From Alphaproteobacteria bacterium (GTDB lineage: Bacteria > Pseudomonadota > Alphaproteobacteria > Methylaequorales > Methylaequoraceae), in assembly GCA_045563025.1 (NCBI GenBank), contig JBJKUS010000005.1, positions 101,988 to 165,987 of the forward strand: a stretch of 64,000 nt of DNA. The letters are read 5' to 3'. Positions 5,881 through 51,851 of this stretch are shown one piece after another (within the stretch, counting starts at the first letter, position 1; the number at the start of each line of letters is the position of its first letter). The notes under the pieces were generated by a model, which saw only the letters and a program-made list of their open reading frames with translations, had not been told where the DNA came from and made no database searches. Position numbers and translations under genes: made by a program.

Positions 5881-7947
5881 ATGAAAAAAATATTAATTGA
5901 TGCAGGTCAAAAAGACGAAGTTAGAGTAGCTATAGTTGATGGTGAGGGTCTAGTAGATTACGAAACTGAAAAAGTTAAAAATGATAGAATTAAGGGAAAT
6001 ATTTATCTTGCTAAAATTGTAAGAGTTGAGCCCTCTCTTCAAGCAGCATTTGTTGACTACGGAGGAAACAAACATGGTTTTTTGGCCTATAATGAAATCC
6101 ACCCTGATTATTTTAAAATACCAACAGCCGATAAAAAAAAACTTTTAGAGCAGGAGTTAGAGGAATCAAAACAAATTACAATAAATGAAGATGATGAAGA
6201 GTTCTTTGATGAAAACTTTCAAGAAAATCAAGAAAGTTTAAAAAAAAAACAATTGCATAATCAAAAAGGTTTTTTATCAAAAGTTTTTGATTTCTTTAAT
6301 TATAAGCCAATTGATGATTTCGCTAGTCCGAAAACAAGAAAAAAAAGAAATTTTAAAACTCAAAACAACAAAAGTAAAGCTGTTATATTTCATAGAAAAT
6401 ACAGTATTCAAGAAGTAATTAAAAGTAACCAAGTTATATTAATTCAAGTAGTTAAAGAAGAAAGAGGTAATAAAGGTGCGGCAGTAACCACAAGACTTTC
6501 ATTGGCTGGAAAGTATTGTGTTTTGATGCCAAATACCAATAAAGGTGGAGGAATCTCAAGAAAAATAATTGAATTAAAATTGAGAAAAAAACTAAAGGAT
6601 GTCGTTAGCAAACTTAAAATAAATAAAGGAATGGGAGTTATAATAAGAACTGCTGGGCAATCAATGGGATTAAAAGAAATTAAAAGAGATTACAATTCAC
6701 TTATAAAGTTATGGAATGAAATCACCTCTAAAACAATTAAGTCTAACGCACCTTGTCTCATACATGAGGAAGATAACTTAATTAAAAGGTGCCTTAGAGA
6801 TTATTTTGACTCAACGTATGATGAGATTTTAATAAATGATAAAAAAACTCTTGTAAAGTGTAAAGAGATAGTCAAACAATTTATGCCTCAATCAATAAAA
6901 TTTCTCAAACAATACAAAGATAAAAAACCACTTTTTTTTAAATTTGGAATAGAAAAAAAAATAATTGATATTAATAATCCAGTCGTAAATCTTAAATCAG
7001 GAGGATACTTAGTTATAAACCAGACTGAGGCACTTGTTGCAATAGATATTAATTCAGGAAAATTTACAAAACAAAGAAATATTGAGGATACAGCATTCAA
7101 AACTAATTTAGAAGCGGCAGAAGAAATCAGCAGACAACTAAGAATTAGAGACCTTGCTGGACTAATTGTTATAGATTTCATCGATATGCTAGACAGAAAT
7201 CACAACTATAAAGTTGAAAAAAAGTTAAAAGATTTTGTAAAAAATGACAGAGCTAGAATACAAATTGGAAGAATAAGTAACTTTGGCTTGCTGGAATTAT
7301 CTAGACAAAGATTAAAAGTTACAGCTGAGGAACAAATTTCTGTAAAATGTGATCATTGCAATGGTTCAGGCAGTAATCTAACAAGTGATTTTTTGATTAC
7401 ACAAATAATGAGAACATATTCAGAGGTTTCATATGATAAACCTAAAGATAAAATATATATATTTTGTAACAATATCCTTAGCAATAAAATCATAGAGATT
7501 AAACAGAAGAAAAAACTTCGTGATGATCAGTTAAGGATAAAGACTTTAGATAGTTTGAGGAGTCAAGACTTTCTTCTTTGCAAAGAAAATGAAATTATAG
7601 TTAAAAACTGTCATATTAATATTGACATTGAAGAAATAAATAAAACTATTAGAACAAAAAAACAACGTAATGAGTTATCTAAAAACAATGAATTAGAAAA
7701 AAAGAGTATCTCAAAAGAGAGAAAAATCTTAGAGACTGAAGAAGATTCTACTAATAAAAAGACCGTTGAAGACAAAAAAAGAAAAAGTTATAGAGCCAAA
7801 GCAATAGATTATAGTCAAACAAAGTTAGCGAAAAATTTGAGTAAAAAACCAAAATCGTCAGAAAATATTGAAATTGTAAATCAAAATATTGAGATTATTA
7901 AAAAACGAAAAAAAGACGAAAAGCGTCATGGCTGGTGGAATCAATAA
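5881..7947 (+). CDS. rne: Ribonuclease E/G family endoribonuclease (RNase E)
   Basis: S1 domain (GNIYLAKIVRVEPSLQAAFVDYG), DNase I-like catalytic region (VIDFIDM), Zn-link CDHCNGSG, K/E-rich C-terminal tail. Confidence 0.85.
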   Translation: MKKILIDAGQKDEVRVAIVDGEGLVDYETEKVKNDRIKGNIYLAKIVRVEPSLQAAFVDYGGNKHGFLAYNEIHPDYFKIPTADKKKLLEQELEESKQITINEDDEEFFDENFQENQESLKKKQLHNQKGFLSKVFDFFNYKPIDDFASPKTRKKRNFKTQNNKSKAVIFHRKYSIQEVIKSNQVILIQVVKEERGNKGAAVTTRLSLAGKYCVLMPNTNKGGGISRKIIELKLRKKLKDVVSKLKINKGMGVIIRTAGQSMGLKEIKRDYNSLIKLWNEITSKTIKSNAPCLIHEEDNLIKRCLRDYFDSTYDEILINDKKTLVKCKEIVKQFMPQSIKFLKQYKDKKPLFFKFGIEKKIIDINNPVVNLKSGGYLVINQTEALVAIDINSGKFTKQRNIEDTAFKTNLEAAEEISRQLRIRDLAGLIVIDFIDMLDRNHNYKVEKKLKDFVKNDRARIQIGRISNFGLLELSRQRLKVTAEEQISVKCDHCNGSGSNLTSDFLITQIMRTYSEVSYDKPKDKIYIFCNNILSNKIIEIKQKKKLRDDQLRIKTLDSLRSQDFLLCKENEIIVKNCHINIDIEEINKTIRTKKQRNELSKNNELEKKSISKERKILETEEDSTNKKTVEDKKRKSYRAKAIDYSQTKLAKNLSKKPKSSENIEIVNQNIEIIKKRKKDEKRHGWWNQ

Positions 7948-37537: not shown

Positions 37538-38287
37538 ATGAATGCCTTCAGCTCTAATGCAGTTTTGAGGATTGCATCGATTCTCTCGTTTTTTCTAATT
37601 TGGCATCTAGCCAGTATTTTCGTTGATGTTGAGCTTCTTCCAGGTCCAGATGAAGTTTCAAAAAAGATTATTGAGGAGGCAAAAAGTTCCGAACTTTTTT
37701 TTCATACCCTCATAACTCTTAAAAGGGTCTCCATTTCATTTATTATAGCAATGCTAATAGGAACTTTTTTTGGTTTATATATGGGTAGAAATGAAAGAGC
37801 TAATACCATCCTTGATGATTGGCTTGTTTTAGGGCTTAACGTTCCTGCATTAGTAATTATTATTTTATGTTATGTATGGTTTGGTTTAAATGAAATGGCA
37901 GCAATCCTTGCAGTTTCACTTAACAAAATCCCAATGGTAGCAGTTATTATGAGAGAGGGCTCAAGAGCTATAGAAAAAGATTATTTGGATGTTGGAAAGT
38001 TCTACAAAATTGGGAAAAATAAGCTTTTTTTAAAGGTAATTTTGCCACAATTGTATCCTTACCTTTTATCCTCAGCAAGATCTGGTTTGTCGTTAATATG
38101 GAAAATTGTTTTAGTTGTAGAGTTATTAGGTAGAAGTAATGGAGTTGGTTTCAAGTTATATGGTTTTTTTCAATTCTTTGACATTTCAGGAATTCTCGCG
38201 TATACACTTGCTTTTGTAATTTTAATAATATTTGTCGAATTCTTACTAATTAGACCCTTTGAAAGAAAAATGTCGGTGTGGAAGTAA
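37538..38287 (+). CDS. ABC transporter permease (NitT/TauT family)
   Basis: 249 aa, 6 TM, EAA-like loop region. Confidence 0.8.
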   Translation: MNAFSSNAVLRIASILSFFLIWHLASIFVDVELLPGPDEVSKKIIEEAKSSELFFHTLITLKRVSISFIIAMLIGTFFGLYMGRNERANTILDDWLVLGLNVPALVIIILCYVWFGLNEMAAILAVSLNKIPMVAVIMREGSRAIEKDYLDVGKFYKIGKNKLFLKVILPQLYPYLLSSARSGLSLIWKIVLVVELLGRSNGVGFKLYGFFQFFDISGILAYTLAFVILIIFVEFLLIRPFERKMSVWK

Positions 38288-38288
38288 A

Positions 38289-39041
38289 ATGAGTTTTACC
38301 ATAAAAATTAAAGAAAAAACATTTCACAACAAACACAATGATTCTAAAATATTAGTTCTCAAAGACATTGACATCAGAATTAAAACAAACGAATTTTTGT
38401 GTATAGTTGGTCCATCAGGGTGTGGAAAAACCACTCTAATGAATATGATAGGAGGCTTAGTTAAAAGTGATGGTCAAATGCTTAAATTTAATAATAATCC
38501 AAACAATGAAGATGAAAATTTTGGTTATGTCTTTCAAACCTCAAGATTACTTCCCTGGTTAACTGTAAAAGAAAATGTTGCCTTAGTATGTAACAAAAAA
38601 GAAATAGATGAATACCAAATTGAAGACATTTTAGAGAGCTTTGGTTTGAAAGATTTTATAAACTATTATCCAAAATCAATTTCTGGAGGAATGAGACGAA
38701 GGGTTTCGTTGGCGAGAGCATTTATTAATAACCCAAAAGTTTTATTAATGGATGAGCCGTTTGTATCGCTAGATCAACCAACGGCTGAGAATTTATATGA
38801 AGTTTTAATAAATTATTGGAAAAAAACAAAAACTACAATTATTTTAATCACTCACGTACTCAAGGAAGCAATTCTCCTAGGTGATAGAATACTATTCTTT
38901 TCTAAAAACCCTGGCACCGTTGTATTTGATTACCAAGTAAAATCAAACAGAAATAACCTTAGTGTTGAAAGTAAATTGGTAAACAAAGAATACTTAGAGT
39001 TAACAAAAAAATACCCAAACCTGTTGAATGGTTTGTTGTGA
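38289..39041 (+). CDS. ABC transporter ATP-binding protein
   Basis: GPSGCGKTT Walker A, LSGGMRRRVSLARA signature, LLMDEPF Walker B. The start is set to the second Met of the track ORF. Confidence 0.85.
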   Translation: MSFTIKIKEKTFHNKHNDSKILVLKDIDIRIKTNEFLCIVGPSGCGKTTLMNMIGGLVKSDGQMLKFNNNPNNEDENFGYVFQTSRLLPWLTVKENVALVCNKKEIDEYQIEDILESFGLKDFINYYPKSISGGMRRRVSLARAFINNPKVLLMDEPFVSLDQPTAENLYEVLINYWKKTKTTIILITHVLKEAILLGDRILFFSKNPGTVVFDYQVKSNRNNLSVESKLVNKEYLELTKKYPNLLNGLL

Positions 39042-39658
39042 ATGTTATAGATACATAAAAAAAATGGGTGAATTTCAAAACTATATTGATAAGGGTGGTG
39101 TGATCTTTACCATTCTGCTGGTTATGTCAGCCATTGGAACGACTATAATTTTATACAAATTTATAGAATTATACTTATTTGATAACGATAAATTTCTTAA
39201 TTGTGATGAACTACTTGATCAGTCTAAAAACATTTCTGATTTTAAAGAACATTTAACAGGTTTAGAAAAAAGTAATTTTCTAAGTAAGGTTTTAACAGTA
39301 TTAGATAGGAAAACCCCAGCTGACAATGATGAAATCTTTAGTTTAATCGAGAAAGGAAATCGAAAAGTCGCAAAAACTCATGCCCACCTTGGAAATAATT
39401 GCTCAGGTCAGCCCTCTAATCGGTTTATTGGGAACAGTGATTGGAATGATTGACTCATTCAACGAGTTAGAATTAGGAGGTAGTCTGGTGGATCCATCCA
39501 TTTTAGCAGGAGGTATTTGGACAGCTTTATTAACAACAGCAATGGGTCTAATAGTGGCAATTCCTGCTTTGATTAGTCATTACTTTTTTGACAGGAAAAT
39601 TATGCAAAAATACAAGCGAACAGAAACAATAATTTTCAGAATTAAAAGTATAGCTTAG
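39028..39658 (+). pseudogene. exbB: ExbB/TolQ (MotA family) proton-channel gene interrupted by a frameshift near 39385
   Basis: The N-terminal part lies in the ORF 39028..39453. The conserved LEIIAQVSPLIGLLGTVIGM...GIWTALLTTAMGLIVAIPAL continues in ORF 39380..39658, a different frame. Confidence 0.6.
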
Positions 39659-39670
39659 TTTTCATTTACA

Positions 39671-39964
39671 GTGCAAAACCAAAATAAAAAATTAAAAATT
39701 AATATTATACCCTTGATAGATATTATTTTCTTAATGCTCGTTTTTTTTATGTTAGCAACAAATTTCAATGAGAAAAGAGAGTTGGATTTTTCAATAGAAA
39801 AAAAAATAGGAGAAAGTTCCGAACTTGAGAAAACGATAATTATCAACATTAAGAATAATGAATTTCTCTATAATAACAAGATTTTAGGAAAAAGAGAATT
39901 TAGAGCAAGATTTATTAAAGATTTGGAAGAGTTCAAATTCCAAGAATTTTGTAATCCTAAATGA
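39671..39964 (+). CDS. exbD: ExbD/TolR biopolymer transport protein
   Basis: 97 aa, INIIPLIDIIFLMLVFFM TM motif. Confidence 0.8.
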   Translation: MQNQNKKLKINIIPLIDIIFLMLVFFMLATNFNEKRELDFSIEKKIGESSELEKTIIINIKNNEFLYNNKILGKREFRARFIKDLEEFKFQEFCNPK

Positions 39965-40044
39965 CAAATCTTCTGAAATAGAAAATTTGATTAAAATCTT
40001 AGATATTTTGAAAGTCAACAAAATAAAAAATGTAACATTTTCTG

Positions 40045-40446
40045 ATGATCCGAAAAAAGAGAAATAGTAAAAAAATAAACTTTGGTGATTCTGTTAATTT
40101 AATCCCAATGATAAATATTATCTTTTTATTATTAATTTTTTTTTTATTGACAGGAGTTATTCAGAAAAAAAATGAATCAAACATTTCTTTGCCTGAATCC
40201 TTTTTTGGAAAAAAGAAAGTTAATGAAAAAAAAGAACTAACTATAAGTTCAGACGGGAAAATTTTATTTAAAAATTCTCCTTCTAACTTAGATTCCATAA
40301 AGTCAATGAAAATTATTTCTGATGAAATATTAGTTATAAATATTGATGAAAAAGCAAAAATTAGAAGATTTAATGAAATAGTTAATATCTTTAAATCTAA
40401 GGGACTAAAAAAAATATACATAAATGTGAAGCACAAAAATGATTAG
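40045..40446 (+). CDS. exbD: ExbD/TolR biopolymer transport protein (second copy)
   Basis: 133 aa, NLIPMINIIFLLLIFFLLTG TM motif plus periplasmic domain. Confidence 0.8.
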   Translation: MIRKKRNSKKINFGDSVNLIPMINIIFLLLIFFLLTGVIQKKNESNISLPESFFGKKKVNEKKELTISSDGKILFKNSPSNLDSIKSMKIISDEILVINIDEKAKIRRFNEIVNIFKSKGLKKIYINVKHKND

Positions 40447-41170
40447 ACTAAATCAACTCTTTATTGCCTCTGGCCTTTCATTAATGATTCACGGCTTTTT
40501 TATATATCAATTTGAGGAATCAAAAAAAGTTGAAGAAATTTATGTTGTTGACCTCAGTTCACATAAAGAATTCAAACCAAAAGAGATTCCGAAGAAAAAA
40601 ACAAAAAAAGTTAATAATCAACTCAACAAAAAAACCTTAAAGAAAGAGGAAATAAAAAAAGAAAAAGATGTTATTCCAATAAAAAAGAAAGAAATAAAAA
40701 AAGAAATAAAAGAAATTGAAACCAAAAACCAAATCAACCCTGAGAAACCAAAGATAATTGAAAAAAAAAAAGTAAAAAAAATAGAAAAAGTTGAAAGCAA
40801 TGAAAGAAATAAATTTAGTTTAGGTCAAAAAAAATCTACTGCTAACAACAACGCAAAAAAACTTTTAATTGATCAAAAAATCAAATCGTTTCTAATTCAA
40901 ATTTCTGAAGAAATTAATAAGATTGCTATGAGGTCATACCCCATACAATCTATTAAAAGAAGAGAACAAGGAACCATCATCGCTGTGATTGTTTTAAATG
41001 CTAATGGAAATCTATTAGACATTAGTTTTGAAAACAGAAGACCTAGGCGATTACACGAGAAAACAAAGGAAATAATTAAAAATTATAAATTTCCTAAACC
41101 ACCGTCCTTAATTTTCGAGACCAAAGAAACTCTGAAGATAAAAATTCCCGTTAATTTTATCTTGAGATAA
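40439..41170 (+). CDS. tonB: TonB-like energy transducer with Lys/Glu-rich (not Pro-rich) linker
   Basis: N-terminal TM (LFIASGLSLMIHGFFIY), low-complexity KKEEIKKEK... spacer, C-terminal TonB_C-like domain (YPIQSIKRREQGTIIAVIVLNANGNLLDISF). Confidence 0.65.
   Translation: MIRLNQLFIASGLSLMIHGFFIYQFEESKKVEEIYVVDLSSHKEFKPKEIPKKKTKKVNNQLNKKTLKKEEIKKEKDVIPIKKKEIKKEIKEIETKNQINPEKPKIIEKKKVKKIEKVESNERNKFSLGQKKSTANNNAKKLLIDQKIKSFLIQISEEINKIAMRSYPIQSIKRREQGTIIAVIVLNANGNLLDISFENRRPRRLHEKTKEIIKNYKFPKPPSLIFETKETLKIKIPVNFILR
40590..40800 (+). repeat. Low-complexity Lys/Glu/Ile-rich coding repeat inside tonB-like gene
   Basis: Reiterated KKEIKKE / KKKVKKIEK units in translation; A-rich purine tract in DNA. 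Confidence 0.6.
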
Positions 41171-41196: not shown

Positions 41197-41304
41197 ATAT
41201 ATGCTTTTAATATGTGATATGCCATTTATTTCTTCAATAATCGATATTTTCTAATATGATGAGATGGATATTATTTAAATACTAACTATAAGGAAGGAAA
41301 TAAT

Positions 41305-42780
41305 ATGAATATTAAAAAGAAAATTGCTTTAGCTGCTATACCTGCTGTTATGGCTCTTTCCGCAACTGATGTAAGCTCAAAAGTCTTACTTATGAGTGAC
41401 AGCGGCTGGGAAGTGTCTTTCGACGGTGCTGCTAACGCATTTCATACAACCATACCTCAACAGGAACTATGGAAACGCTAGGCTGACTACAACGAGTATA
41501 CAACTGGTGGTGAAACTGACGGCCTCAGGTATTATCCAAGGTGGTGGTGAATCTGGTAACGTTGTAAACCGTGGTGGCATGTCCAAAACTTGGACAGGGT
41601 GCAGGTGGATCTGATATTTCAGGTCAATCTCTGTCGGTCTATTACCAAACGTATGGGGTTTCACTGTAAAAGCTCCAACTAAAAGTGGTTTAGACGTTTC
41701 AGGTCGTTTGGGTCTTATACACACACATGAACGGCGACTGGTGCTTCAGCATGAAGCTAACAGTAGTAAACATTCGTGAAACTTCACTTAACTGTTGCAG
41801 GGTCTTTCGGTTCTGTTCTAATGGGAAGAAGTTTAGGCATTCACCAGTCAAACGCCATCTCTAAACGATATGACGCTATTTGGTGTCGGTGCCGCTGCAG
41901 GTAACATCGTCACTGGTACTACATCTAGGTAGAATTGGTGTAGGATACGTCTACGCTGACTGGTATCCACAAATCACTTGGACGACTCCAGGTCTTAGGA
42001 CCAATTGGAGCTAAAATTGGTATTTTACAAGCGACTCCGCTTCAGTCTAGTACTGGTGCCGACGCAACAAATACAAAATACCCAAGAGTCGAAGCTCAGT
42101 TAGACTATACGGTTGAAGTAGGCGGTCTTAGGCGGTTACGTTTGGGTTGATGGTCAATACCAGAACGTCGATGCGAGATACATTGGGCTGAGAGTCTAAG
42201 CTTTACCGAAGCAAGAAACACTGGTAGTTCGTAACCTTAAGTGGTGTAGCTAGCACGTTGCAGTCGGCGACGAATCAGTCTGAAGGCATTGAAGTGGGTG
42301 GAGTATGGTTTCGGTACGAGATTAACATTCCAAGGCTTCAAACTAGTTGCTTCTGGTTTCTATAACCAAGGATATAGGCTCATGCAGTTGCAAGGTAACA
42401 CAAATGGCGGCGCTTATTCCGGATCTCTTGATGAGAGAGGTAAAGCCTAGACACTTCTATGGTGGGTACATCCAAGGTACATATGACTTCGGTCAAGGTA
42501 CAAACGTAGGTTATTCTTACGGTTCCAACCACTCAAGTTCAAACCGGACAGGATGCAGGTGAACTCAACCAACGTTACACACTTGGTGGCGGTGGCACTG
42601 CAGTTAGAACAGATGCTCTATCCAAAACTATGTTGAGTCACACATGGGTATGATCTGGCACAATGTCACTGATGACTTCAGAGTAATCGCCGAAGGTGTA
42701 TTCTTCAGAGAGCGCACTGGCATGGTGCTGGTTCACAAGAAAGCACACAGGTATCTGTTGGTGCATTCTTTTTCTGGTAG
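41305..42780 (+). pseudogene. Porin-like Gly-rich outer-membrane beta-barrel gene, disrupted by about 10 frameshifts/stops
   Basis: Strong RBS AGGAAGGA 7 nt upstream of ATG. Signal peptide MNIKKKIALAAIPAVMALSA. Gly-rich segments appear in all three + frames (TASGIIQGGGESGNVVNRGG; LGQGAGGSDISGQSLSVYYQTYG; FGVGAAAGNIVTGTT; GGYVWVDGQYQNVDARYIGL; FYGGYIQGTYDFGQGTNVGYSYGS; LGGGGTAVRTDALS). The sequence ends ...VSVGAFFFW-stop, the aromatic C-terminal signature of beta-barrel proteins. GC is elevated. No ORF over 72 aa exists in the track. Confidence 0.6.
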
Positions 42781-42810
42781 AATTTTTACCTGAGAATAAA
42801 CTATACACTT

Positions 42811-42842
42811 AGGGGAAGGTTTTATTAGCCTTCCCTTTTTGT
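42811..42842 (+). terminator. Rho-independent terminator of the porin-like gene
   Basis: GGGGAAGG-ttttattag-CCTTCCC followed by TTTTT. Confidence 0.75.
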
Positions 42843-43989
42843 TATGAGACGCAAATTAATAGATACTAATTTCCGCTTTCTTTTTAACTGAGTTGTTCAA
42901 CTTCGTAACCGATTCACTTGATTCATTTACCGGTTCTTTTACAAATATACGACAAAGTGACGAAATATTATTTCTCAGTGCATACGAGAACGTAAAAGTC
43001 GTTGAACAAGACTCACAACTTAACTGGGAAGAACATTCTCACCCAGTTAATATCTCTGAAGAGAGAGTAGAGGGGGCATCTAAAATTACTCTTGTTCAGG
43101 GTGGGTAGCAAAACTAAGTCCTCTGTTCCCAGGAGAAAAAATTAGAATCCATATCAGACAGTATCTCCGAAGGGTCTATGCAAAAGCGAATAGAAGTGAA
43201 GATGTCGTTTTTACTAGCGGAAGAGTTGGTATTCAGAGACTCTGCCGGGCACAAGAGTTAAAAGACAACAGAGTAGTCTCAGGAAGGGTGTTTTACAACA
43301 AAGATGGGCTTAAATGTCATTTTTGGCTCAGTTTTGACGAAAAGGGTTCTCAAAGCACAACAGATCCAATGCTAGAAAGTCGAAACCCAGACCTAAAAAC
43401 TAAACCCATACGTATGCCGGGATCAAGATTAGTATCCGTCAAAAACCCTTTTACGCTATGGCAGTACCACCCAACTCAGGAATCCAAGAGACCACGAGTA
43501 GCCAAGAGGAAGGGTGGATTGGATAATACTCACACGTAAGTCACTCATGGTGGCAAGAACCAATCTCTCTGAAAGTGAAAGAAAACTCCGCAAGGTCATC
43601 TAACATATTGAAGTCCAGGGGCTAAAAAGCGAAGTTCAGAGCAGCTAAGACAAGAGCTTCACGAGTCATTAAAGGGAGGTCCAAGCCAACAGATATCAGA
43701 TATCCGTGCGCAAGGCCATGTGTATCATCGTCACCCAAATGTTCAACCTTCTGGTTATCAATATCCAAGACCGCTATCCCGCTACCGACACCCATACCCA
43801 TACCAACATACCGTCAAGCCATACCCAAACCCCAATCAACAGGCTTATCCAAATCAACGAATTATCAGGACAATCCCAATCAAGGGCCGACTAATCAAGC
43901 GAGTTAAGTTTAAAATCACTTGAAAGTATGAGATCGAGAGGTTTAATCAGCGAGGAGTCTTATCTAAGAAAGCTAAAAGAGCTGGGTTA

Positions 43990-44716
43990 TTAATTAAATT
44001 CAACCTCGAAGTTCCATATTATGGTGTGGTTGGCAGATGCATCAGTCAGTCCGTGCAAATAACCAACTGCCCACTCATAATCCATGTCACCGTACAGTTT
44101 AAACCCAGACTCTAACTGAAAACCATACTGATGCTCCTGTTCTCCAAAGACTCTAAATTTTGAAATCTCTCCAAAGTCACTAAACCCAATCAACCCAAAA
44201 TCAATGAGTTCGAAAAAATACCTCTTTGATGTAAAAGTAATTACTTAAATCGAAGGTTGTTGACCCCCCGGCTCTACTTCCAACTTGTTTTTCAAATATA
44301 AAATTAGTAATTAAACCTAATTCATCATTATACAGTTCATTTAAGTATTTGTATTCTATTTCGTCACCTTCAGAGTTTTCTGTTACAAAGTTATACGAAA
44401 AATAAAGTGCGGCAGCAAAATTTTCAAAATCAAAAATTTGCACTTGATTCTGAAATTCAGTTTTTTCCCAATCCAGCGGAGTATCTTCCTTGTCAGAAAT
44501 ATGAAATTCCAATTCACTTTGCCAGAAACTTGTCCAAGAATATTCAGTCTCAAGAACGTGATGATGATTTTTATTTTCTTCGTTCCTATCATCGACATCA
44601 AAATGACCTCTCCATTCAAAAGATTGTCTTCCCTCTTCAACTTTTGGACTGTATATTTTATGGTGAGCTTGTAAATAAGAAAATTTAAAGAATAAAATTA
44701 AAAAAACAAGTTTCAT
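43990..44716 (-). pseudogene. Outer-membrane beta-barrel protein (His-rich N-terminal region; MipA/CopB-like?) interrupted by a frameshift at a C6/G6 homopolymer (about 44194-44200)
   Basis: ORF 44201..44716 has a signal peptide MKLVFLILFFKFSYLQA and alternating beta-strand pattern. It continues in a shifted frame as ORF 43990..44193, ending ...WNFEVEFN. The junction falls at the run gaCCCCCCgg. Confidence 0.5.
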
Positions 44717-45630: not shown

Positions 45631-46341
45631 ATGGATTATCAGCTTAAAGCGGATGATTTCGTGGGTGTAACTTTTTGGATAATTTCTGTATCAATGGTTG
45701 CATCAACAGCATTCTTCTTTTTTGAATCTAACAGTGTTGCTAGACACTGGCAAACATCTGTGAGAGTGGCTGGACTAGTTACACTTATCGCAGCTGTTCA
45801 CTACTACTATATGAGAGATGTTTGGGTTGCCACTGGTGAATCTCCAACTGTTTACCGATACATCGATTGGCTCCTAACCGTTCCACTTCAGATGATAGAA
45901 TTCTATCTAATTCTTGCAGCAGTTGGCGCAGCAACCGCTGGAATTTTCTGGAGACTTCTAATTGGTACACTTATAATGCTTATTGGTGGCTTTATGGGTG
46001 AAGCTGGTTACATAAATGCAACTGTTGGCTTCATAATCGGCATGGCAGGATGGATTTATATTTTGTACGAAGTCTTTGCCGGTGAAGCTGCACAAGCTAG
46101 TGCATCAAGTAACTCGGAAGGAATGAAATCAGCATTCAATGCATTAAAATGGATTGTATCAATCGGTTGGTCAATTTACCCAATCGGTTATTTCCTAGGT
46201 TATCTTTCAGGTGCGGGTGCAGATGCATCTACACTTAACTGGGTATATAACTTAGCTGATTACATTAATAAAATTGCATTTGGTGTAATTATATGGGCTG
46301 CTGCTAAAGCTGACATCAGCCAAAGCTTAAATTTTATGTAA
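45631..46341 (+). CDS. Proteorhodopsin, blue-tuned (Gln at position 105 equivalent)
   Basis: 7-TM protein. RYIDWLLTVPLQMIEFY contains the proton acceptor D97, donor E108 and Q at the L/Q105 tuning site. Schiff-base Lys is in YNLADYINKIAFGVIIW. Confidence 0.95.
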   Translation: MDYQLKADDFVGVTFWIISVSMVASTAFFFFESNSVARHWQTSVRVAGLVTLIAAVHYYYMRDVWVATGESPTVYRYIDWLLTVPLQMIEFYLILAAVGAATAGIFWRLLIGTLIMLIGGFMGEAGYINATVGFIIGMAGWIYILYEVFAGEAAQASASSNSEGMKSAFNALKWIVSIGWSIYPIGYFLGYLSGAGADASTLNWVYNLADYINKIAFGVIIWAAAKADISQSLNFM

Positions 46342-46351
46342 ATCTTAAGGT

Positions 46352-46388
46352 AAGGGAAACATCCTAAAATATGTTTCCCTTATTTTTT
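46352..46388 (+). terminator. Rho-independent terminator after the proteorhodopsin gene
   Basis: Perfect 11-bp inverted repeat AAGGGAAACAT-cctaaaat-ATGTTTCCCTT followed by ATTTTTT. Confidence 0.8.
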
Positions 46389-47480
46389 ATGATAAAAAAC
46401 CTAAGTTATAAAAATTATCTAAAAAATCTTAATTTTGTCCGATCATCTGATAATTGGACGGACCTAAATAATTTTTCAAATAGTATAAAATCATCACTAC
46501 CTGATAAGTTAGATTATGTAAGTAGATTAAACATAGTCGATTTAAAAATGAGAGAGATTTTATGCGATGACTCGTGGATGGGACATTGTGCAAAGTATCA
46601 ATTACAATCAGGGGGGAAAAGATTTAGAGCATTACTAGCTTTGATGTCTGCAGACCTTTTCGATTTAGACATTAATTCATCCATAAACGTTGCAGTTTGC
46701 TGTGAATTTATTCATAATGCATCTCTAATACACGATGACCTTCAAGATAGAGACCTTCTTAGAAGAGGTCTTCCCACAATTTGGAATAGATTTGGTGATC
46801 ACACAGCCATAAATTTAGGTGATTACTTTATTTCAGGTTCATTTGAAATATTAACTAATATAAAAGTAAATCCCAACTACAAGTGTACTGCAATATCTGA
46901 ACTTAGCCAGATAATAAAGCAAACTTTAAAAGGACAATCACTAGAAATTTTAGGAAGATCTGATTTTGATTTACAAATGGAAGATTATGAATCGACTGCT
47001 AAGGCAAAAACTGGAGGATTGATTTGCTTGCCAATCAAACTCATTATGATACTAAAAGGAAAAAAAATTGATGATGATATGTTTCAACCTTTGTATGAAG
47101 CTGGACTTGCTTATCAGATTCAAGATGATCTTTCAGATTTTCTGGGAATTAAAGACAGAGGTTTACCTGGACGAGACTTAAAAGAAGGAAAAATGAATGT
47201 ACTAATAATGCATTTCTTAAAATATGCTACAAACGGAGAAAAATTTTTATTGCAAGAATTTCTAAAAAAGAAAACTGAATCAATTTCTGAAGAAGATATT
47301 CTTAATTGGATAAAAACAATAGAAAGCAAAGGTATAATTGAAAAATCAATTCAGCACTTAATTGATGTATCAAAAAAATCAATTGACTTGTCTAGCGAAA
47401 TGGACATAAGATTGACAGAAATTGTGAAGTTTGTTAATAAAAATATACTAAATAGAATTTCAAAAAAAATTAAAAATTAA
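46389..47480 (+). CDS. crtE: Geranylgeranyl diphosphate synthase
   Basis: GGKRFRALLAL, FARM IHDDLQDRDLLRRG, SARM YQIQDDLSDF. The track start (46371) lies inside the terminator hairpin, so the start is moved to the next Met. The true start is uncertain, and could be as late as about 46548. Confidence 0.8.
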   Translation: MIKNLSYKNYLKNLNFVRSSDNWTDLNNFSNSIKSSLPDKLDYVSRLNIVDLKMREILCDDSWMGHCAKYQLQSGGKRFRALLALMSADLFDLDINSSINVAVCCEFIHNASLIHDDLQDRDLLRRGLPTIWNRFGDHTAINLGDYFISGSFEILTNIKVNPNYKCTAISELSQIIKQTLKGQSLEILGRSDFDLQMEDYESTAKAKTGGLICLPIKLIMILKGKKIDDDMFQPLYEAGLAYQIQDDLSDFLGIKDRGLPGRDLKEGKMNVLIMHFLKYATNGEKFLLQEFLKKKTESISEEDILNWIKTIESKGIIEKSIQHLIDVSKKSIDLSSEMDIRLTEIVKFVNKNILNRISKKIKN

Positions 47481-47481
47481 A

Positions 47482-48954
47482 ATGAAAAAAGCCATTGTAG
47501 TTGGTTCAGGTTTTGGTGGTATCGCATCAGCATTAAGACTAAGAGCAAATGGTTACGACGTAGAGATTTATGAGAAACTTGACCAAATCGGAGGCAGGGC
47601 AAGAGTATTTAAAAAGTCTGGATATACATTTGATGCGGGGCCAACTGTAATTACTGCACCATTTTTATTTGATGAACTTTTTGAATTGTTCAGTAAAAAA
47701 AGAGAAAAATATATAAAGTTTGTAAAGTTAGAGCCTTGGTATAGATTTTATTTTTCTGAGAATAATAAACATTTTGATTACTCAGAGAGTCTAAAGAAAA
47801 CTGAAAAAGAAATAGCTAAATTTAACAAAGAAGATATTGAAGGTTATTATAAATTAGTAGCTTTCTCTGAAAAAATATTCAATGTTGGTTTTTTAAAACT
47901 ATCAACTGCACCATTTCACAATTTCTTCTTTATGCTTAAACAATTACCCTCTTTATTTAAACTTAAAAGTTATCACACCGTATTTGGATTAGTTGGAAAA
48001 TTTATTAAAAATAAACAATTACGACAAGCGCTAAGCATACAGCCACTGCTATTAGGAGGAAATCCAACTTCAACTACATCTATATACAACTTAATACACT
48101 TTTTAGAGCGAAAATGGGGAGTTCATTATGCAGTTGGGGGCACAGGTGGCCTGATAAAGGCCTTAAAAAAGCTTATGATTGAGGAGAATATTAAAATTAG
48201 CATAAAATCTGAAGTAACAAAATTAATTACTGATAGAAATAAAGTCTTGGGTATTGAAGTAAATAATAAGAAAAAAATATTTGCTGATAAAGTTGTCATA
48301 AATGCAGACCCTGCTTTTACTTATAAAAATCTGTTGAAAACGCCATACAATAAAAAATGGAATCAGAATAGATTAAGTAAACTTGATTATTCAATGGGTC
48401 TTTTTGTTTTGTATTTTGGCACCAAGAAAAAATATAAAAACATAGCTCATCATACAATCTGGATGGGAAAAAGGTATGAAGGATTATTAGATGATATTTT
48501 TAATAAACAGATTCTTGCTGAAGATTTTAGTTTATATCTTCATAGACCAACTGCAACTGATAAAACAATGGCTCCAAAAAATTGTGATTGCTTCTACGTT
48601 TTGTCACCTGTACCAAATCTATTAGCCAAAATTAATTGGAAAGTTGAAGCAGAAACATATAAAAATAAAATAATCAAAGCTCTGGAAAATACCATCCTAC
48701 CCAACCTTCAAAAAAATATTGATGTCTGTTTTTATATGACACCTGATGACTTTAAAAATGATTATTTATCATTAAATGGAACTGGTTTTTCAATAAGCCC
48801 TATATTTACACAATCTGCATGGTTTAGATTCCATAATAAATCTGAAGACTTCAAGAATCTTTACTTTGTTGGAGCAGGCAGTCATCCAGGTGCTGGAGTT
48901 CCGGGGGTATTAAGCTCTGCAAAGGTTCTTGAGAATATAATTGCAAATGAATAA
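47482..48954 (+). CDS. crtI: Phytoene desaturase
   Basis: AIVVGSGFGGIASALRL FAD fold, 490 aa, and crt cluster context. Confidence 0.9.
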   Translation: MKKAIVVGSGFGGIASALRLRANGYDVEIYEKLDQIGGRARVFKKSGYTFDAGPTVITAPFLFDELFELFSKKREKYIKFVKLEPWYRFYFSENNKHFDYSESLKKTEKEIAKFNKEDIEGYYKLVAFSEKIFNVGFLKLSTAPFHNFFFMLKQLPSLFKLKSYHTVFGLVGKFIKNKQLRQALSIQPLLLGGNPTSTTSIYNLIHFLERKWGVHYAVGGTGGLIKALKKLMIEENIKISIKSEVTKLITDRNKVLGIEVNNKKKIFADKVVINADPAFTYKNLLKTPYNKKWNQNRLSKLDYSMGLFVLYFGTKKKYKNIAHHTIWMGKRYEGLLDDIFNKQILAEDFSLYLHRPTATDKTMAPKNCDCFYVLSPVPNLLAKINWKVEAETYKNKIIKALENTILPNLQKNIDVCFYMTPDDFKNDYLSLNGTGFSISPIFTQSAWFRFHNKSEDFKNLYFVGAGSHPGAGVPGVLSSAKVLENIIANE

Positions 48955-49840
48955 TGCTAAAAAACTTACTCTTAAGTTCAGGGCTAAAACATTTTACTTT
49001 GCTTCAGTATTTCTCCCAAATAAAATAAGAAAAGATATTGAAAATTTATATATCTTCTGCAGATATGTAGATGATATTGGTGATGGTGGGAATTTTACAA
49101 AAAAAAATGCTATTAAAAAGCTTAGTCAAATAAAATCACAGATATTAATAAAAAAATCAGATAACCTAATTATTTCTGAATTTATTTCTTTGCAAATCAA
49201 ATACAAAATTAACGCTTCAATTCCTATTGATTTAATAAATGGAGTAAAGAGTGATCTCAATAATGTTGATTTTAAGAATAATAAAGAATTACTAAAATAT
49301 TGTTATCAAGTTGCTGGAACTGTAGGGTATATGTTTTGCAAAATCATAAAGGTAAATAACACTAAATTGATTTTTAGAGGAGTACAGCTAGGAATAGCAA
49401 TGCAACGCACAAATATTTCTAGGGATATAAGAGAAGATTTAGAATCTAATAGGATGTATTTGCCTAGGGAGGCAAGACAATATAGAGGCGAAAAAAAAAA
49501 AATAATACATAATAATAAGTTGAAGAAAACTATTTCTGAAGATTTGTTAAGTTTTTTAAAGCAAACTGAAAAATTTTATCAAAACTCTTGGATAGGTATA
49601 CGCAAACTTCCATTTAAATACGCTGTCCCCGTAAGTATAGCGGCAGAACTTTATCAGAGGATTGGAAATAAAATTATAAAAAATAATTGTAATATTTGGG
49701 ATAGAAGAATACATCTCAACAAATTTGAAAAAGTAAAATATTCCTTCTTTGCACTTTATAAATTATTTTTCTTAAAAACAAAATTAGAAAGCAAAATAGA
49801 TATCGAATGTAAATGTCTTATAGATAATATAAAAGGTTGA
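48941..49840 (+). CDS. crtB: Phytoene synthase
   Basis: YIFCRYVDDIGDG and YQVAGTVGYM squalene/phytoene synthase signatures. Confidence 0.9.
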   Translation: MQMNNAKKLTLKFRAKTFYFASVFLPNKIRKDIENLYIFCRYVDDIGDGGNFTKKNAIKKLSQIKSQILIKKSDNLIISEFISLQIKYKINASIPIDLINGVKSDLNNVDFKNNKELLKYCYQVAGTVGYMFCKIIKVNNTKLIFRGVQLGIAMQRTNISRDIREDLESNRMYLPREARQYRGEKKKIIHNNKLKKTISEDLLSFLKQTEKFYQNSWIGIRKLPFKYAVPVSIAAELYQRIGNKIIKNNCNIWDRRIHLNKFEKVKYSFFALYKLFFLKTKLESKIDIECKCLIDNIKG

Positions 49841-50973
49841 ATATATATATTATGAATAATTACGATATTATAATAATTGGAGCTGGCCTATCTGGCTTAA
49901 CTTTAGCCTTAGAACTTTCAAAGAAAACTGCTAAAAGTATTTTAATTCTTGAAAAAAAAAGAAAATTATTTTTTGACAAAAATTGGTGCTTTTGGAATCA
50001 ACCATATAATCCATTTACCTCTAAATATGATAATCAATGGGAAAATATTGCAATTAAAATAGATGGTAAAGAGATAGTCCATAATGATTTTAACATAAAA
50101 TATTTACACATCAAATCATCAACATTTTATAAAAAAGTAAGTAAGGAACTAAAACAAAAAAAAATAGAAATAAAAATGAATCAAAATATTGAAAAAATAG
50201 TTAACACTGATGATGAACAAACGGTTTTATCAAATAAAAAACAATATAAGACTAAATTAATTTTTGATAGCAGACCCGATTTTTATAAAGAAAATAAAGG
50301 ATACTTATATCAACATTTTTATGGTGTGGAAGTGATCTTTAAAAATGCCTTATTAGATGATAAAAAAGTAATGTTAATGGATTTTCAAAATTTTCAAAAT
50401 GGCATTAATTTTTTTTACGTACTTCCTTTTTCAAAAAGAAAGGCTTTATTTGAAACAACTTATTTTTCCACAAAAGTTTTAAAAGAAGAAGAATATAAAA
50501 ATGATATAAAAAATTACTTAAAAGCTAATTACCCAAATAAGGAATTTTCACATAAATTTGTTGAAAAAGGCGTCATTCCTATGTTTTTAAAAAACATAGA
50601 AACCTCCTCGCTGGTTAAAATCGGTACACCAGCAAATTGGGTAAAAATCTCCACGGGATATTCATTCCAAAATTCATTTATTAATTCTAAAGAAATCGTA
50701 AACAAACTAATAAATAAAAAAGAACTTAAAATAAAAAAAAATATAATAAATGATTTTTTAGATAGGACTTTTTGTTTTTACATTAAAAATTACAGTGAAG
50801 ATTCAAAACAATTTTTTAAATGTTTCTTTTATAAAAACAATATTAAGAACATTGTTTGTTTTTTAGTTGGAAAGGCAAGTTTTATTCAAGTTGTAAGAAT
50901 TATATTGACTCTCCCTAAAGTTAAATTAATTATTTCAGCTTTTAATATCTTGAAAGAAAGTTTAGTAAAATGA
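49837..50973 (+). CDS. crtY: Lycopene beta-cyclase
   Basis: N-terminal FAD/NAD fold YDIIIIGAGLSGLTLALEL, 378 aa, between crtB and blh. Confidence 0.8.
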   Translation: MNIYIMNNYDIIIIGAGLSGLTLALELSKKTAKSILILEKKRKLFFDKNWCFWNQPYNPFTSKYDNQWENIAIKIDGKEIVHNDFNIKYLHIKSSTFYKKVSKELKQKKIEIKMNQNIEKIVNTDDEQTVLSNKKQYKTKLIFDSRPDFYKENKGYLYQHFYGVEVIFKNALLDDKKVMLMDFQNFQNGINFFYVLPFSKRKALFETTYFSTKVLKEEEYKNDIKNYLKANYPNKEFSHKFVEKGVIPMFLKNIETSSLVKIGTPANWVKISTGYSFQNSFINSKEIVNKLINKKELKIKKNIINDFLDRTFCFYIKNYSEDSKQFFKCFFYKNNIKNIVCFLVGKASFIQVVRIILTLPKVKLIISAFNILKESLVK

Positions 50974-51851
50974 TTAAAATTGAAACTAAGATTTTTTTAC
51001 TTGTGAATGTTTTTTTTGTTATCCTTCTATCATTTTTTGAAAATATGATCTATTCAAGTTTTATAACTCAAATTTATATTTTTATTATTCCATTACTATG
51101 GCCTGGACTAGCACATGGTAGTATTGATATTCTAACCGCTAAAAGAAAAAATATTATTTCAAGTGATAAAAATAATCTTATTTTCCTAATATCATATGTA
51201 ATAATTCCTGTTTTTTTTTTTTTAATTTGGCTAAATTTTCCAAATTTTACTTTTACAGTTTTTTTAGTTCTTTCATTACTTCATTTTGGAATAAGTGATA
51301 AATTATATTTTGACAAATTAATTAGTTTAATTGAAATTTCATTAAGAGCGTTAATTGTTTTCACATTACCAATTGTATTTCATAATTATGAAACAATTCA
51401 GATTGTAAGGTTTCTTTATGTTTCAGATGAATATTTACTAACTTTGACTAAATTTTTTGAGTATCTAGTTTATTTTATAATTCCCCTAATGGCTTTGTTC
51501 ATCTACTATTCTTTTATTAAACAAAATGTTGGAGGAATTTTAGAAATATTTATAATTCTATTTTGTTTTTATTTCTTTAAACCTCTTGTTTCTTTTTTAC
51601 TTTATTTTTGTTTTCTTCATTCCACAAGACACCTTTTAAATGAAAAAAAATTATTAAATTTATCTTTTAAAAAAATATTTTTTAAAACAATTCCAATGAC
51701 ATCAATTGTTGTTGTGGGAACCTTTATACTTCTTTTTTTAAGTTATTTTTTCTTTAAATCTTCTAGTTTATTATTTTCCAGCTATATTATCATAGCCCTT
51801 TTCTGCTTTACAATACCACATATAATTTTAATAAATTTTACAAAGAACTAG
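50970..51851 (+). CDS. blh: Brp/Blh-family beta-carotene 15,15'-dioxygenase (retinal synthesis)
   Basis: 293 aa polytopic membrane protein with conserved His (PGLAHGSID, LLHFGISD, FLHSTRH). It is the terminal gene of the crtEIBY cluster next to a rhodopsin. Confidence 0.8.
   Translation: MIKIETKIFLLVNVFFVILLSFFENMIYSSFITQIYIFIIPLLWPGLAHGSIDILTAKRKNIISSDKNNLIFLISYVIIPVFFFLIWLNFPNFTFTVFLVLSLLHFGISDKLYFDKLISLIEISLRALIVFTLPIVFHNYETIQIVRFLYVSDEYLLTLTKFFEYLVYFIIPLMALFIYYSFIKQNVGGILEIFIILFCFYFFKPLVSFLLYFCFLHSTRHLLNEKKLLNLSFKKIFFKTIPMTSIVVVGTFILLFLSYFFFKSSSLLFSSYIIIALFCFTIPHIILINFTKN

What the first reader, a model, noticed from the sequence alone, without database searches (positions are those of the whole stretch)
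41221..42842. Highly-expressed-looking porin-like gene riddled with frameshifts inside a GC-elevated island
The locus has a promoter-proximal strong SD (AGGAAGGA), a clean signal peptide, Gly-rich beta-strand segments, a ...AFFFW C-terminal barrel signature and a textbook terminator. Coding continuity is nevertheless broken about ten times, so the porin-like segments are spread over all three forward frames. GC is about 45%, against about 29% genome-wide. Streamlined SAR11-type genomes carry almost no pseudogenes, so a heavily decayed but still motif-rich OMP gene is anomalous. Possible explanations: (i) a local sequencing or assembly indel cluster in a compositionally atypical, highly expressed gene; (ii) a genuine pseudogene; (iii) a consensus collapse of hypervariable strain alleles. 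Explanation (i) would mean the real genome encodes an intact abundant porin directly downstream of the ExbBD-TonB cluster.
Basis: partly seen in the sequence, partly recalled or inferred. Interest (0 to 1): 0.8.

Follow-up and report, generated by a model that had tools for sequence, protein, structure and literature searches.

The report
Two porin alleles merged by assembly
The "frameshift-riddled porin" is not a decaying gene: the deposited metagenome-assembled genome interleaves, almost base by base, two intact natural versions of a variable outer-membrane porin locus, so it is an assembly artefact.

Summary
Window 41305-42780 is a porin-like gene with the SD, signal peptide, AFFFW end, terminator and about 45% GC as described. 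It has about 25 frameshifts, not 10.

It is not a pseudogene. Metagenome contigs with a 100% identical TonB protein and near-identical flanks carry an intact 471-472 aa porin.

The window differs from them only between 38.0 and 46.3 kb, by substitutions and insertions and almost no deletions.

- **Two parents.** 93% of positions that disagree with allele type L001 match allele type L004, and vice versa. The allele-informative sites fall into 335 alternating blocks in 3.1 kb.
- **Supersequence.** The window is close to a common supersequence of both alleles.
- **Base rule.** Where the alleles differ, the base higher in G>C>A>T is written.
- **Simulation.** A simulated merge with these rules gives 149 differences from the window, against 377 and 408 for either parent.

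The same broken ORFs are in the public record (MFL2676055/056/059/060/061/064). Five neighbouring genes are also hit: ExbB, ExbD, a 350 aa lipoprotein-like gene, a 240 aa gene and the proteorhodopsin 3' end.

Biological interest is low.

The parts
38014..38438 (+). Upstream footprint of the merge in the ABC permease/ATPase genes: 14 substitutions relative to the natural contigs, all 'upward' in G>C>A>T, with no indel.
39064..39658 (+). ExbB (197 aa in natural contigs), split into 141 aa and 92 aa ORFs by a one-base G insertion at 39351. The 92 aa piece is deposited as MFL2676055.1.
39671..40070 (+). First ExbD (132 aa in natural contigs), cut to 97 aa by a one-base G insertion at 39887. Deposited as MFL2676056.1.
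40439..41170 (+). TonB, intact and 100% identical to the protein on the natural contigs. Used as the anchor for synteny.
41291..41298 (+). Shine-Dalgarno AGGAAGGA of the porin gene, invariant in all aligned natural alleles.
41305..42780 (+). Porin gene as written in the window: 1476 nt against 1416-1419 nt in nature. It is an interleaved merge of an L001-type and an L004-type allele, with 32 insertion events (25 frameshifting, 60 extra bases). Only its first 58 codons are annotated in the record (MFL2676059.1).
42811..42842 (+). Intrinsic terminator of the porin gene: 11-pair stem plus T run. It is conserved in natural alleles, but here carries a 3-nt merge insertion in the loop region.
42844..43993 (+). 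Gene for a 350-360 aa lipoprotein-like protein with a lipobox-like LTGC/LMSC, a Pro/Tyr/Gln-rich stretch and a weak SHOCT-like end. It is the most divergent part of the cassette (67% identity between the alleles) and the most damaged: 35 insertion events, 97 extra bases. Only 3% of its 25-mers exist in any natural contig.
43990..44716 (-). Gene for a 240 aa protein of unknown function, broken by a one-base insertion at 44212 and carrying an in-frame CCG insertion at 44090. The 171 aa fragment is deposited as MFL2676061.1.
45631..46341 (+). Proteorhodopsin gene. A one-base excess near 46312, at a site where natural contigs differ by a 6-nt tandem copy (GACTCA), shifts the last codons and gives a 236 aa product seen only in this MAG (MFL2676064.1). 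Natural products are 232-234 aa.

Best explanation
The stretch from about 38.0 to 46.3 kb of this public metagenome-assembled genome is a chimeric consensus of two co-existing strains, and the damage is concentrated at 41.2-44.3 kb.

The two strains are practically identical in the flanks. They carry deeply different alleles of a cell-surface cassette: the porin gene (79% identical) and the lipoprotein-like gene after it (67%). During assembly, merging or polishing the two versions were aligned to each other and written out as one sequence.

Three rules describe the output:
- where only one allele has a base, that base was kept, so the result is close to a common supersequence and shows only insertions relative to either allele;
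- where the alleles differ, the base higher in the order G>C>A>T was written;
- the rest is shared sequence.

This produces about 60 frameshifts across six genes and raises the GC content.

**Shown:** the two-parent decomposition, the supersequence property, the base precedence, the intact natural alleles, and the presence of the broken ORFs in the deposited record.

**Inferred:** that the step was a consensus of two equally weighted sequences (two contigs, haplotigs or read groups) with a deterministic tie-break. The program responsible is unknown.

The organism itself almost certainly has an intact, probably abundant, general porin directly downstream of exbB-exbD-exbD-tonB.
For: **Natural loci are intact**
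- Eight independent contigs with a 100% identical TonB protein have an intact ExbB(197)-ExbD(132)-ExbD(133)-TonB(243)-porin(471-486)-350/360 aa-240 aa arrangement.
- All 32 full-length natural porin loci examined have an open frame.

**The differences are localised and one-sided**
- Against L001-L003, the window shows essentially no differences per 500 bp outside 38.0-44.5 kb. Inside there are 337 substitutions, 177 inserted bases in 79 events and 3 deleted bases.
- Substitutions are mainly synonymous. In the porin gene 66 of 102 are at third codon positions and none creates a stop. The underlying sequences were therefore under selection.

**Two parents account for the window**
- L004 explains 349 of 375 positions that do not match L001. 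L001 explains 368 of 394 that do not match L004. The control L009 explains 225 and 121.
- 158 of 173 extra bases relative to L001 are L004 bases.
- 717 informative positions form 335 alternating blocks with a median span of 2 nt.
- Supersequence property: +173 extra / 3 missing against L001, and +154 / 21 against L004.

**Base precedence G>C>A>T**
- It holds at 74-84% of differing sites for all six base pairs.
- It holds at 38 of 40 sites in the cleanly aligned upstream part.

**Forward simulation**
- A unit-cost alignment of L001 and L004, with base beating gap and G>C>A>T, gives 149 differences from the window. Either parent gives 377 or 408, random picks give 307-329, and the reverse order gives 504. 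G>C>A>T is the best of all 24 orders. Dropping the indel bases gives 336.

**The chimeric sequence is not seen elsewhere**
- Only 23% (porin) and 3% (next gene) of the window's 25-mers occur in any natural contig, against 100% in the flanks.
- A chimeric 30-mer has no match in the JGI metagenome contigs, although a separate scan of the same collection with the natural porin protein returned 39 related loci.

**The public record has the same breaks**
- The fragment ORFs are deposited as MFL2676055/056/059/060/061/064 on a 354,554-bp contig.
Against: - No reads are available, so the two haplotypes in the source sample are inferred from other samples' contigs.
- About 7% of the deviating positions match neither L001 nor L004. 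The true parents are close relatives of these two contigs, not the contigs themselves.
- The upstream variants at 38.0-40.2 kb are explained by none of the contigs in hand except partly L009 (18 of 43).
- The simulation still leaves 149 differences in 3.19 kb.
- I cannot name a program that uses G>C>A>T.
- In the divergent part the precedence is about 80% rather than 100%. This may reflect alignment ambiguity, or a weighted vote rather than a strict tie-break.
Confidence: 0.95

Rival explanations
1. A genuine pseudogene cluster: the porin and its neighbours were inactivated in this strain and are decaying.
For: - Many frame breaks hit several adjacent genes while the promoter-proximal signals remain.
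- The breaks are present in the deposited record.
Against: - There are 79 insertion events against essentially no deletions. From general knowledge, bacterial gene decay is biased towards deletions.
- No substitution creates a stop codon in the porin gene, and substitutions are concentrated at third codon positions.
- 93% of the 'mutations' are exactly the bases of a second natural allele.
- The base choice follows a fixed order G>C>A>T that is defined on one strand.
- The flanks are identical to contigs with intact genes, which leaves no time for about 500 changes to accumulate.
- All 32 natural loci are intact.
Confidence: 0.01
2. An ordinary cluster of sequencing errors (low coverage, homopolymer or long-read indels) on one true allele.
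For: - The contig is 354 kb long, which suggests long reads.
- Other very long contigs named *_pilon from related lineages also have this porin split into 3-4 ORFs.
- One insertion is a plain A7-to-A8 homopolymer change at 39057.
Against: - Only 1 of 46 single-base insertions lies in a homopolymer of 4 or more, in a genome full of A/T runs whose flanks have no indels at all.
- 91% of the extra bases and 95% of the mismatches relative to L001 are the L004 allele's bases.
- Random errors would not be mostly synonymous.
Confidence: 0.03
3. A real biological mosaic: recombination or gene conversion between the two alleles in a cell, possibly with GC-biased repair of a heteroduplex.
For: - Both parental alleles exist in nature in identical flanks, so recombination between them is possible.
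- W>S changes dominate, 209 against 35, which resembles GC-biased conversion.
Against: - 335 switches in 3.1 kb with a median block of 2 nt is far beyond any known conversion tract pattern.
- Both alleles' indel bases are retained, which destroys six genes.
- The precedence also ranks A over T (121:23) and G over C (32:7) on one strand. A repair bias towards G:C pairs cannot produce that.
- The sequence is absent from independent assemblies.
Confidence: 0.01

Closest known systems
Strain-collapsed ('strain-oblivious') consensus contigs in metagenome assemblies (described for Flye and Canu assemblies in Vicedomini et al. 2021, PMC8302730)
   Same: Two conspecific strains with near-identical genomes are represented by one contig, so the written sequence belongs to neither strain.
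   Different: The collapse here spans a cassette only 67-79% identical. The output is therefore not a majority haplotype but a base-level interleaving. It keeps both alleles' indel bases and follows a fixed base precedence (G>C>A>T), giving about 60 frameshifts in about 6 kb.
General Gram-negative trimeric porins (OmpF, Omp32, PorB, DcaP; Pfam Porin_4, PF13609)
   Same: For the natural alleles:
- a signal peptide, a mostly beta-strand model and a C-terminal aromatic end (...AFFFW);
- Foldseek probability 1.0 and E 7e-17 to 1e-11 to these solved porins;
- weak Porin_4 hits.
   Different: - The protein is longer (about 470 aa against 310-350 aa) with long loops modelled at low confidence.
- Sequence similarity is below Pfam's gathering score.
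- A profile search of PDB sequences finds nothing.
- No functional data exist.
Bacterial pseudogenes of reductive genome evolution
   Same: Multiple frameshifts in neighbouring genes, with regulatory signals still recognisable.
   Different: - The changes are insertions only, with no nonsense substitutions.
- The changes are those of a second functional allele.
- Orthologues in contigs with identical flanks are intact.
Hypervariable surface-protein loci in marine bacterioplankton (for example the putative SAR11 porin with high dN/dS in Brown et al. 2012, PMC3421443)
   Same: The natural locus under the artefact has flanks 99.96% identical, while the porin is 79% and the next gene 67% identical between co-occurring types.
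   Different: That literature describes real allelic diversity. The window shows the technical consequence of such diversity. It was not established that this is the same porin gene as in that paper.

Membership tests
Chimeric consensus of co-assembled strain alleles (assembly artefact) | Deviations from one natural allele are the bases of another natural allele | tested here: met
   349 of 375 (93%) and 368 of 394 (93%) in the two directions. The control allele L009 gives 60% and 31%.
Chimeric consensus of co-assembled strain alleles (assembly artefact) | The alleles share near-identical flanks, so they co-assemble | tested here: met
   L001 against L004 is 99.96% identical over 6.8 kb of flank. 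The window against L001-L003 shows essentially no differences per 500 bp outside 38.0-44.5 kb.
Chimeric consensus of co-assembled strain alleles (assembly artefact) | Switching between the alleles is too fine for biology and follows an algorithmic rule | tested here: met
   - 335 blocks in 3.1 kb.
- G>C>A>T precedence.
- Best of 24 orders in the simulation.
Chimeric consensus of co-assembled strain alleles (assembly artefact) | The junction sequences are absent from independent assemblies | tested here: met
   - A chimeric 30-mer has no hit in the JGI metagenome contigs.
- 23% and 3% of the 25-mers are found in 49 natural loci, against 100% in the flanks.
Chimeric consensus of co-assembled strain alleles (assembly artefact) | Reads of the source sample split into two intact haplotypes | not testable with these tools
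   No read data are available.
Pseudogene (evolutionary decay) | Disruptions of mixed kinds (nonsense substitutions, deletions at least as common as insertions) | tested here: not met
   79 insertion events, 3 deleted bases and no substitution-made stop in the porin gene.
Pseudogene (evolutionary decay) | Relaxed selection: substitutions spread evenly over codon positions | tested here: not met
   Porin substitutions by codon position 1/2/3 are 17/19/66. Changed codons are 56 synonymous and 35 non-synonymous.
Pseudogene (evolutionary decay) | Divergence of the flanks is commensurate with the amount of decay | tested here: not met
   The flanks are identical to contigs with intact genes.
General Gram-negative porin (Pfam Porin_4 / OmpF-like beta-barrel); applies to the natural alleles | Pfam PF13609 match above the gathering score | tested here: not met
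   14.3-16.5 bits against a cut-off of 27 for the L001-type and L004-type proteins. 18 of 62 relatives match at E<=0.01, best 4e-07.
General Gram-negative porin (Pfam Porin_4 / OmpF-like beta-barrel); applies to the natural alleles | Beta-barrel fold like solved porins | tested here: met
   - AlphaFold2 model of P0003 (99.6% identical to the L004 allele): pLDDT 69.6, pTM 0.72, about 17-18 strand segments.
- Foldseek top hits are DcaP, Omp32, PorB and OmpF, with probability 1.0 and target TM-scores of 0.6-0.74.
- Confidence is moderate because the loops are poorly modelled.
General Gram-negative porin (Pfam Porin_4 / OmpF-like beta-barrel); applies to the natural alleles | N-terminal signal peptide and C-terminal aromatic residue | tested here: met
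   Read directly from the sequence. M1...A17 and A468 F469 F470 F471 W472 are invariant in 62 relatives.
General Gram-negative porin (Pfam Porin_4 / OmpF-like beta-barrel); applies to the natural alleles | Trimeric channel with measured conductance | not testable with these tools
   Requires biochemistry.

The most novel reading that the evidence does not exclude
Beneath the artefact lies a real balanced polymorphism. One planktonic alphaproteobacterial population, with genomes otherwise 99.96% identical around the locus, maintains at least two deeply divergent alleles of a two-gene surface cassette directly downstream of exbB-exbD-exbD-tonB: the porin (79% identical) and a lipoprotein-like protein (67%). 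This would be expected under negative frequency-dependent selection, for example by phages that use these proteins as receptors. The evidence shows the two allele types in identical flanks. It does not show that they coexist at stable frequencies, or why.
Probability: 0.5. Interest if true: 0.35.

Novelty: not a real feature. Interest (0 to 1): 0.1.

Why it matters
Biologically it matters little. The organism has an ordinary intact porin, not an anomalous pseudogene in a streamlined genome.

Practically it is a clear worked example of how strain collapse in a public MAG can fabricate frameshifts:
- six genes are deposited as fragments or with a false C-terminus (MFL2676055, 056, 059, 060, 061, 064);
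- the porin is reduced to a 58 aa 'hypothetical protein';
- local GC is inflated by about 4 points.

Errors of this kind inflate pseudogene counts, remove abundant surface proteins from gene catalogues and proteomics databases, and could mislead models trained on such sequence.

The signature is simple to screen for: insertions only relative to every relative, each 'error' being another allele's base, and a fixed base precedence. The site also marks a truly hypervariable surface cassette.

Tried and rejected
- **rRNA or other RNA gene.** A GC-rich, ORF-free 3 kb stretch in an AT-rich genome could be one. Rfam found nothing at gathering thresholds and ARAGORN found no tRNA in the whole window. 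Rejected.
- **Pfam on my hand-stitched translation.** No hit.
- **tblastn of homologues against the region.** BLAST bridged the shifts with gaps, so it did not resolve the frameshifts. I replaced it with DNA-to-DNA alignment to syntenic contigs.
- **Both scans of genome contigs found nothing.**
  - The TonB protein patterns were low-complexity.
  - A conserved 28-mer had no exact match.
  - No GTDB representative of this species was therefore obtained and the organism name is unresolved.
- **The look-up of encoding contigs for the source contig.** Look-ups of the 171 aa and 141 aa fragment ORFs and of the 236 aa rhodopsin found nothing on record. The source contig's DNA could not be fetched. 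The exact-sequence cluster look-up then showed that the fragments are in the NCBI record.
- **Horizontal-transfer island.** Rejected, because GC3 equals that of the neighbours and the gene is syntenic in a lineage only 88% identical.
- **Programmed frameshifting or slippage.** Rejected, because the shifts are explained base by base by the second allele and only one lies in a homopolymer.
- **PDB sequence search with a profile of the family.** Nothing found. Only the fold comparison links the protein to porins.
- **The *_pilon contigs L052 and L053.** I could not resolve whether they carry the same kind of merge, because no close natural allele of that lineage was in hand.
- **The program behind the G>C>A>T order.** Not identified.
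Full report
**1. The observation**

- AGGAAGGA lies at 41291-41298, just before the ATG at 41305.
- The translation starts with a signal peptide (MNIKKKIALAAIPAVMALSATDVSS) and ends with ...VSVGAFFFW* at 42780.
- A terminator-like hairpin sits at 42811-42837, followed by a T run.
- GC is 0.44-0.47 across the gene, against 29.8% for the window.

Porin-like peptide segments are spread over all three forward frames. No ORF above 85 aa lies between 41.2 and 44.2 kb, in a window otherwise tightly packed with long ORFs. The gap is therefore about 3 kb, twice the size of the reported feature. Rfam and tRNA scans found nothing in the window, so this is not an RNA gene.

**2. Intact relatives and synteny**

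A hand-stitched translation found 507 proteins. The best are 465-473 aa at 73-79% identity, and almost all come from marine metagenomes.

Looking up the window's intact TonB protein by exact sequence returned eight independent contigs (L001-L008). All have the same gene order: ExbB (197 aa), ExbD (132), ExbD (133), TonB (243), an intact 471-486 aa porin homologue, a 350-360 aa protein, a 240 aa protein on the other strand, DUF3126, DUF3429, then proteorhodopsin. A more distant lineage, 88% identical (L009), has the same order. A scan of the JGI metagenome contigs added 39 more loci. Every full-length copy has an open frame.

In the window four further genes of this set are broken or altered:
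- ExbB is split into 141 aa and 92 aa ORFs.
- The first ExbD is cut to 97 aa.
- The 350 aa gene is in pieces.
- The 240 aa gene is cut to 171 aa.

**3. How the window differs from the natural contigs**

Aligned to L001-L003, the window shows essentially no differences per 500 bp outside 38.0-44.5 kb. Inside there are 337 substitutions and 177 inserted bases in 79 events, but only 3 deleted bases.
- The porin gene carries 32 insertion events (25 frameshifting). The next gene carries 35 (30 frameshifting).
- Only 1 of 46 single-base insertions lies in a homopolymer of four or more.
- After the insertions are removed, the substitutions are mostly synonymous. In the porin gene the counts by codon position are 17, 19 and 66, and none creates a stop codon.
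- Substitutions run strongly from A/T to G/C (209 against 35), and also from T to A (70 against 5).

Insertions only, no nonsense changes, and selection-shaped substitutions next to identical flanks are not what gene decay or random sequencing error looks like.

**4. Two parents**

The multiple alignment shows that the window alternates between the L001-type allele and the L004-type allele. L004 is from a Tara contig whose flanks are 99.96% identical to L001. Its porin is 79% and its next gene 67% identical to L001's.

Quantitatively, for 41.2-44.3 kb:
- L004 explains 349 of the 375 positions that do not match L001.
- L001 explains 368 of the 394 that do not match L004.
- The control allele L009 explains 225 and 121.
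- 158 of the 173 bases that are extra relative to L001 are L004 bases, and 146 of the 154 extra relative to L004 are L001 bases.
- The 717 allele-informative positions fall into 335 alternating blocks with a median span of 2 nt.
- The window has +173 extra and 3 missing bases against L001, and +154 and 21 against L004, so it is close to a common supersequence of both.

**5. An algorithmic rule**

Where the two alleles differ, the base written does not depend on which allele carries it. It depends on the base itself:

| Pair | Counts |
|---|---|
| G over A | 110:27 |
| G over C | 32:7 |
| G over T | 33:10 |
| C over A | 55:19 |
| C over T | 146:36 |
| A over T | 121:23 |

In the cleanly aligned upstream part (38.0-40.7 kb), 38 of 40 differences from L001 go upward in the order G>C>A>T.

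I simulated the artefact by aligning L001 and L004 at unit cost, keeping every base that faces a gap, and resolving mismatches by G>C>A>T.
- The simulated merge is 3179 nt long (window 3190 nt) and differs from the window at 149 positions.
- Either parent differs at 377 or 408 positions.
- Random picks give 307-329, and the reverse order gives 504.
- Dropping the bases that face a gap gives 336.
- G>C>A>T is the best of all 24 possible orders.

A precedence that ranks A over T and G over C on one strand cannot come from a repair bias towards G:C pairs. It looks like a tie-break between two equally weighted sequences. That last step is inference, and I could not name the program.

The rule also explains why the window's porin gene has 45.5% GC while both natural alleles have 40.4-41.7%.

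**6. The error is in the public record**

Exact-sequence look-ups show that the window's ORFs are deposited for one NCBI MAG ('Alphaproteobacteria bacterium', contig of 354,554 bp):
- the 92 aa ExbB piece (MFL2676055.1);
- the 97 aa ExbD (MFL2676056.1);
- a 58 aa 'hypothetical protein', which is the porin's first 58 codons (MFL2676059.1);
- a 71 aa piece of the next gene (MFL2676060.1);
- the 171 aa piece of the 240 aa gene (MFL2676061.1);
- a 236 aa rhodopsin found only in this MAG (MFL2676064.1).

The rhodopsin's odd length comes from a one-base excess at a site where natural contigs differ by a 6-nt tandem copy.

The chimeric sequence has no independent support. A junction 30-mer has no match in the JGI metagenome contigs. 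Only 23% (porin) and 3% (next gene) of the window's 25-mers occur in any of the natural loci, against 100% in the flanks.

**7. What the real gene is**

- The natural protein has a signal peptide and an invariant AFFFW end.
- Pfam Porin_4 hits are below the gathering score: 14-16.5 bits against 27. 18 of 62 relatives match at E<=0.01, best 4e-07.
- An AlphaFold2 model has moderate confidence (pLDDT 69.6, pTM 0.72) and is almost all beta strands.
- Its best matches among solved structures are all general porins: DcaP, Omp32, PorB and OmpF, with probability 1.0 and E-values of 7e-17 and weaker.
- A sequence-profile search of PDB chains finds nothing.

It is therefore best called a distant, long-looped member of the general porin fold. 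Membership of Porin_4 by Pfam's own cut-off is not met.

The raised GC of the natural gene lies in codon positions 1 and 2 (0.50-0.53 and 0.47). GC3 (0.24-0.26) equals that of the neighbours. This points to amino-acid composition, not foreign origin. High expression was not tested.

**8. Why this locus**

The porin and the following lipoprotein-like gene form a hypervariable cassette inside otherwise identical genomes. A published SAR11 study likewise reports a putative porin with high dN/dS (PMC3421443); whether that is the same gene was not checked.

Strain-oblivious assemblers are known to collapse conspecific strains into one consensus (PMC8302730). Where the strains are 67-79% identical, the consensus becomes nonsense.

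Other very long contigs named *_pilon from a related lineage also carry this porin in 3-4 pieces. I could not resolve the nature of their breaks.

**9. Rivals**

- **True pseudogene:** contradicted by the insertion-only pattern, the lack of nonsense changes, the synonymous bias, the identical flanks and the two-parent decomposition.
- **Plain sequencing indels on one allele:** contradicted because the 'errors' are the other allele's bases and avoid homopolymers.
- **Real recombinant mosaic:** contradicted by 335 switches in 3.1 kb, retention of both alleles' indels, the strand-defined base order and absence from other assemblies.
- **Horizontal transfer and programmed frameshifting:** set aside for the reasons given in paragraphs 3-5 and 7.

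**10. Verdict**

The real genomes encode an intact porin downstream of ExbB-ExbD-ExbD-TonB. Interest is low. The useful products are a correction to a public record, a recognisable artefact signature, and a pointer to a truly hypervariable surface cassette.

Noticed in passing
window 45631-46341 (about 46312): The proteorhodopsin gene ends with a shifted tail (236 aa; ...AAKADISQSLNFM*), whereas natural contigs give 232 aa (...AAKADSAKA*) or 234 aa. The one-base excess sits where natural contigs differ by a 6-nt tandem copy, GACTCA. This 236 aa product is deposited as MFL2676064.1 and is unique to this MAG.
   Followed up: yes
window 39351 and 39887: Single G insertions split ExbB (141 + 92 aa) and truncate the first ExbD (97 aa). 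They lie among about 40 mostly synonymous differences at 38.0-40.2 kb that match neither the L001 nor the L004 type (18 of 43 match L009). The second strain in the source sample therefore differed upstream from every contig I had.
   Followed up: partly
L001:8337-9389 and L004:8344-9426 (window 42844-43993): The gene after the porin encodes a lipoprotein-like protein. It has a lipobox-like LTGC or LMSC near the N-terminus, a conserved middle part, a Pro/Tyr/Gln-rich repeat region (PYPYPQPYQYQ...) and a weak SHOCT-like C-terminus (E 0.002-0.03). It is only 67% identical between contigs whose flanks are 99.96% identical, so it is more variable than the porin.
   Followed up: partly
L052 (erskine_4 contig_28715_pilon, 328 kb) 6001-7420; L053 (monsoon_2 contig_15185_pilon, 402 kb) 6001-7426: Two other very long contigs from a related lineage (88-90% identical to L009) also carry this porin split into 3-4 ORFs. 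Their names suggest long-read assembly with Pilon polishing. In L052 most neighbouring genes are intact, but a few others there are also fused or split. In L053 many genes are broken. The locus seems to be a recurrent trouble spot for such assemblies.
   Followed up: partly
window 41.2-44.3 kb and 38.0-40.7 kb: The fixed base precedence G>C>A>T at sites where the two alleles differ is a possible fingerprint of the software step that made the merge. The program was not identified.
   Followed up: partly
window 45631-51851: Proteorhodopsin is followed by a polyprenyl synthase and an amino-oxidase family (phytoene-desaturase-like) gene, according to the Pfam labels on the syntenic contigs. This is the usual retinal/carotenoid neighbourhood. 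These genes appear intact in the window.
   Followed up: no
window 39057: An A8 run where natural contigs have A7, just upstream of the ExbB start codon. This is the only insertion in the tract that looks like an ordinary homopolymer-length error.
   Followed up: yes
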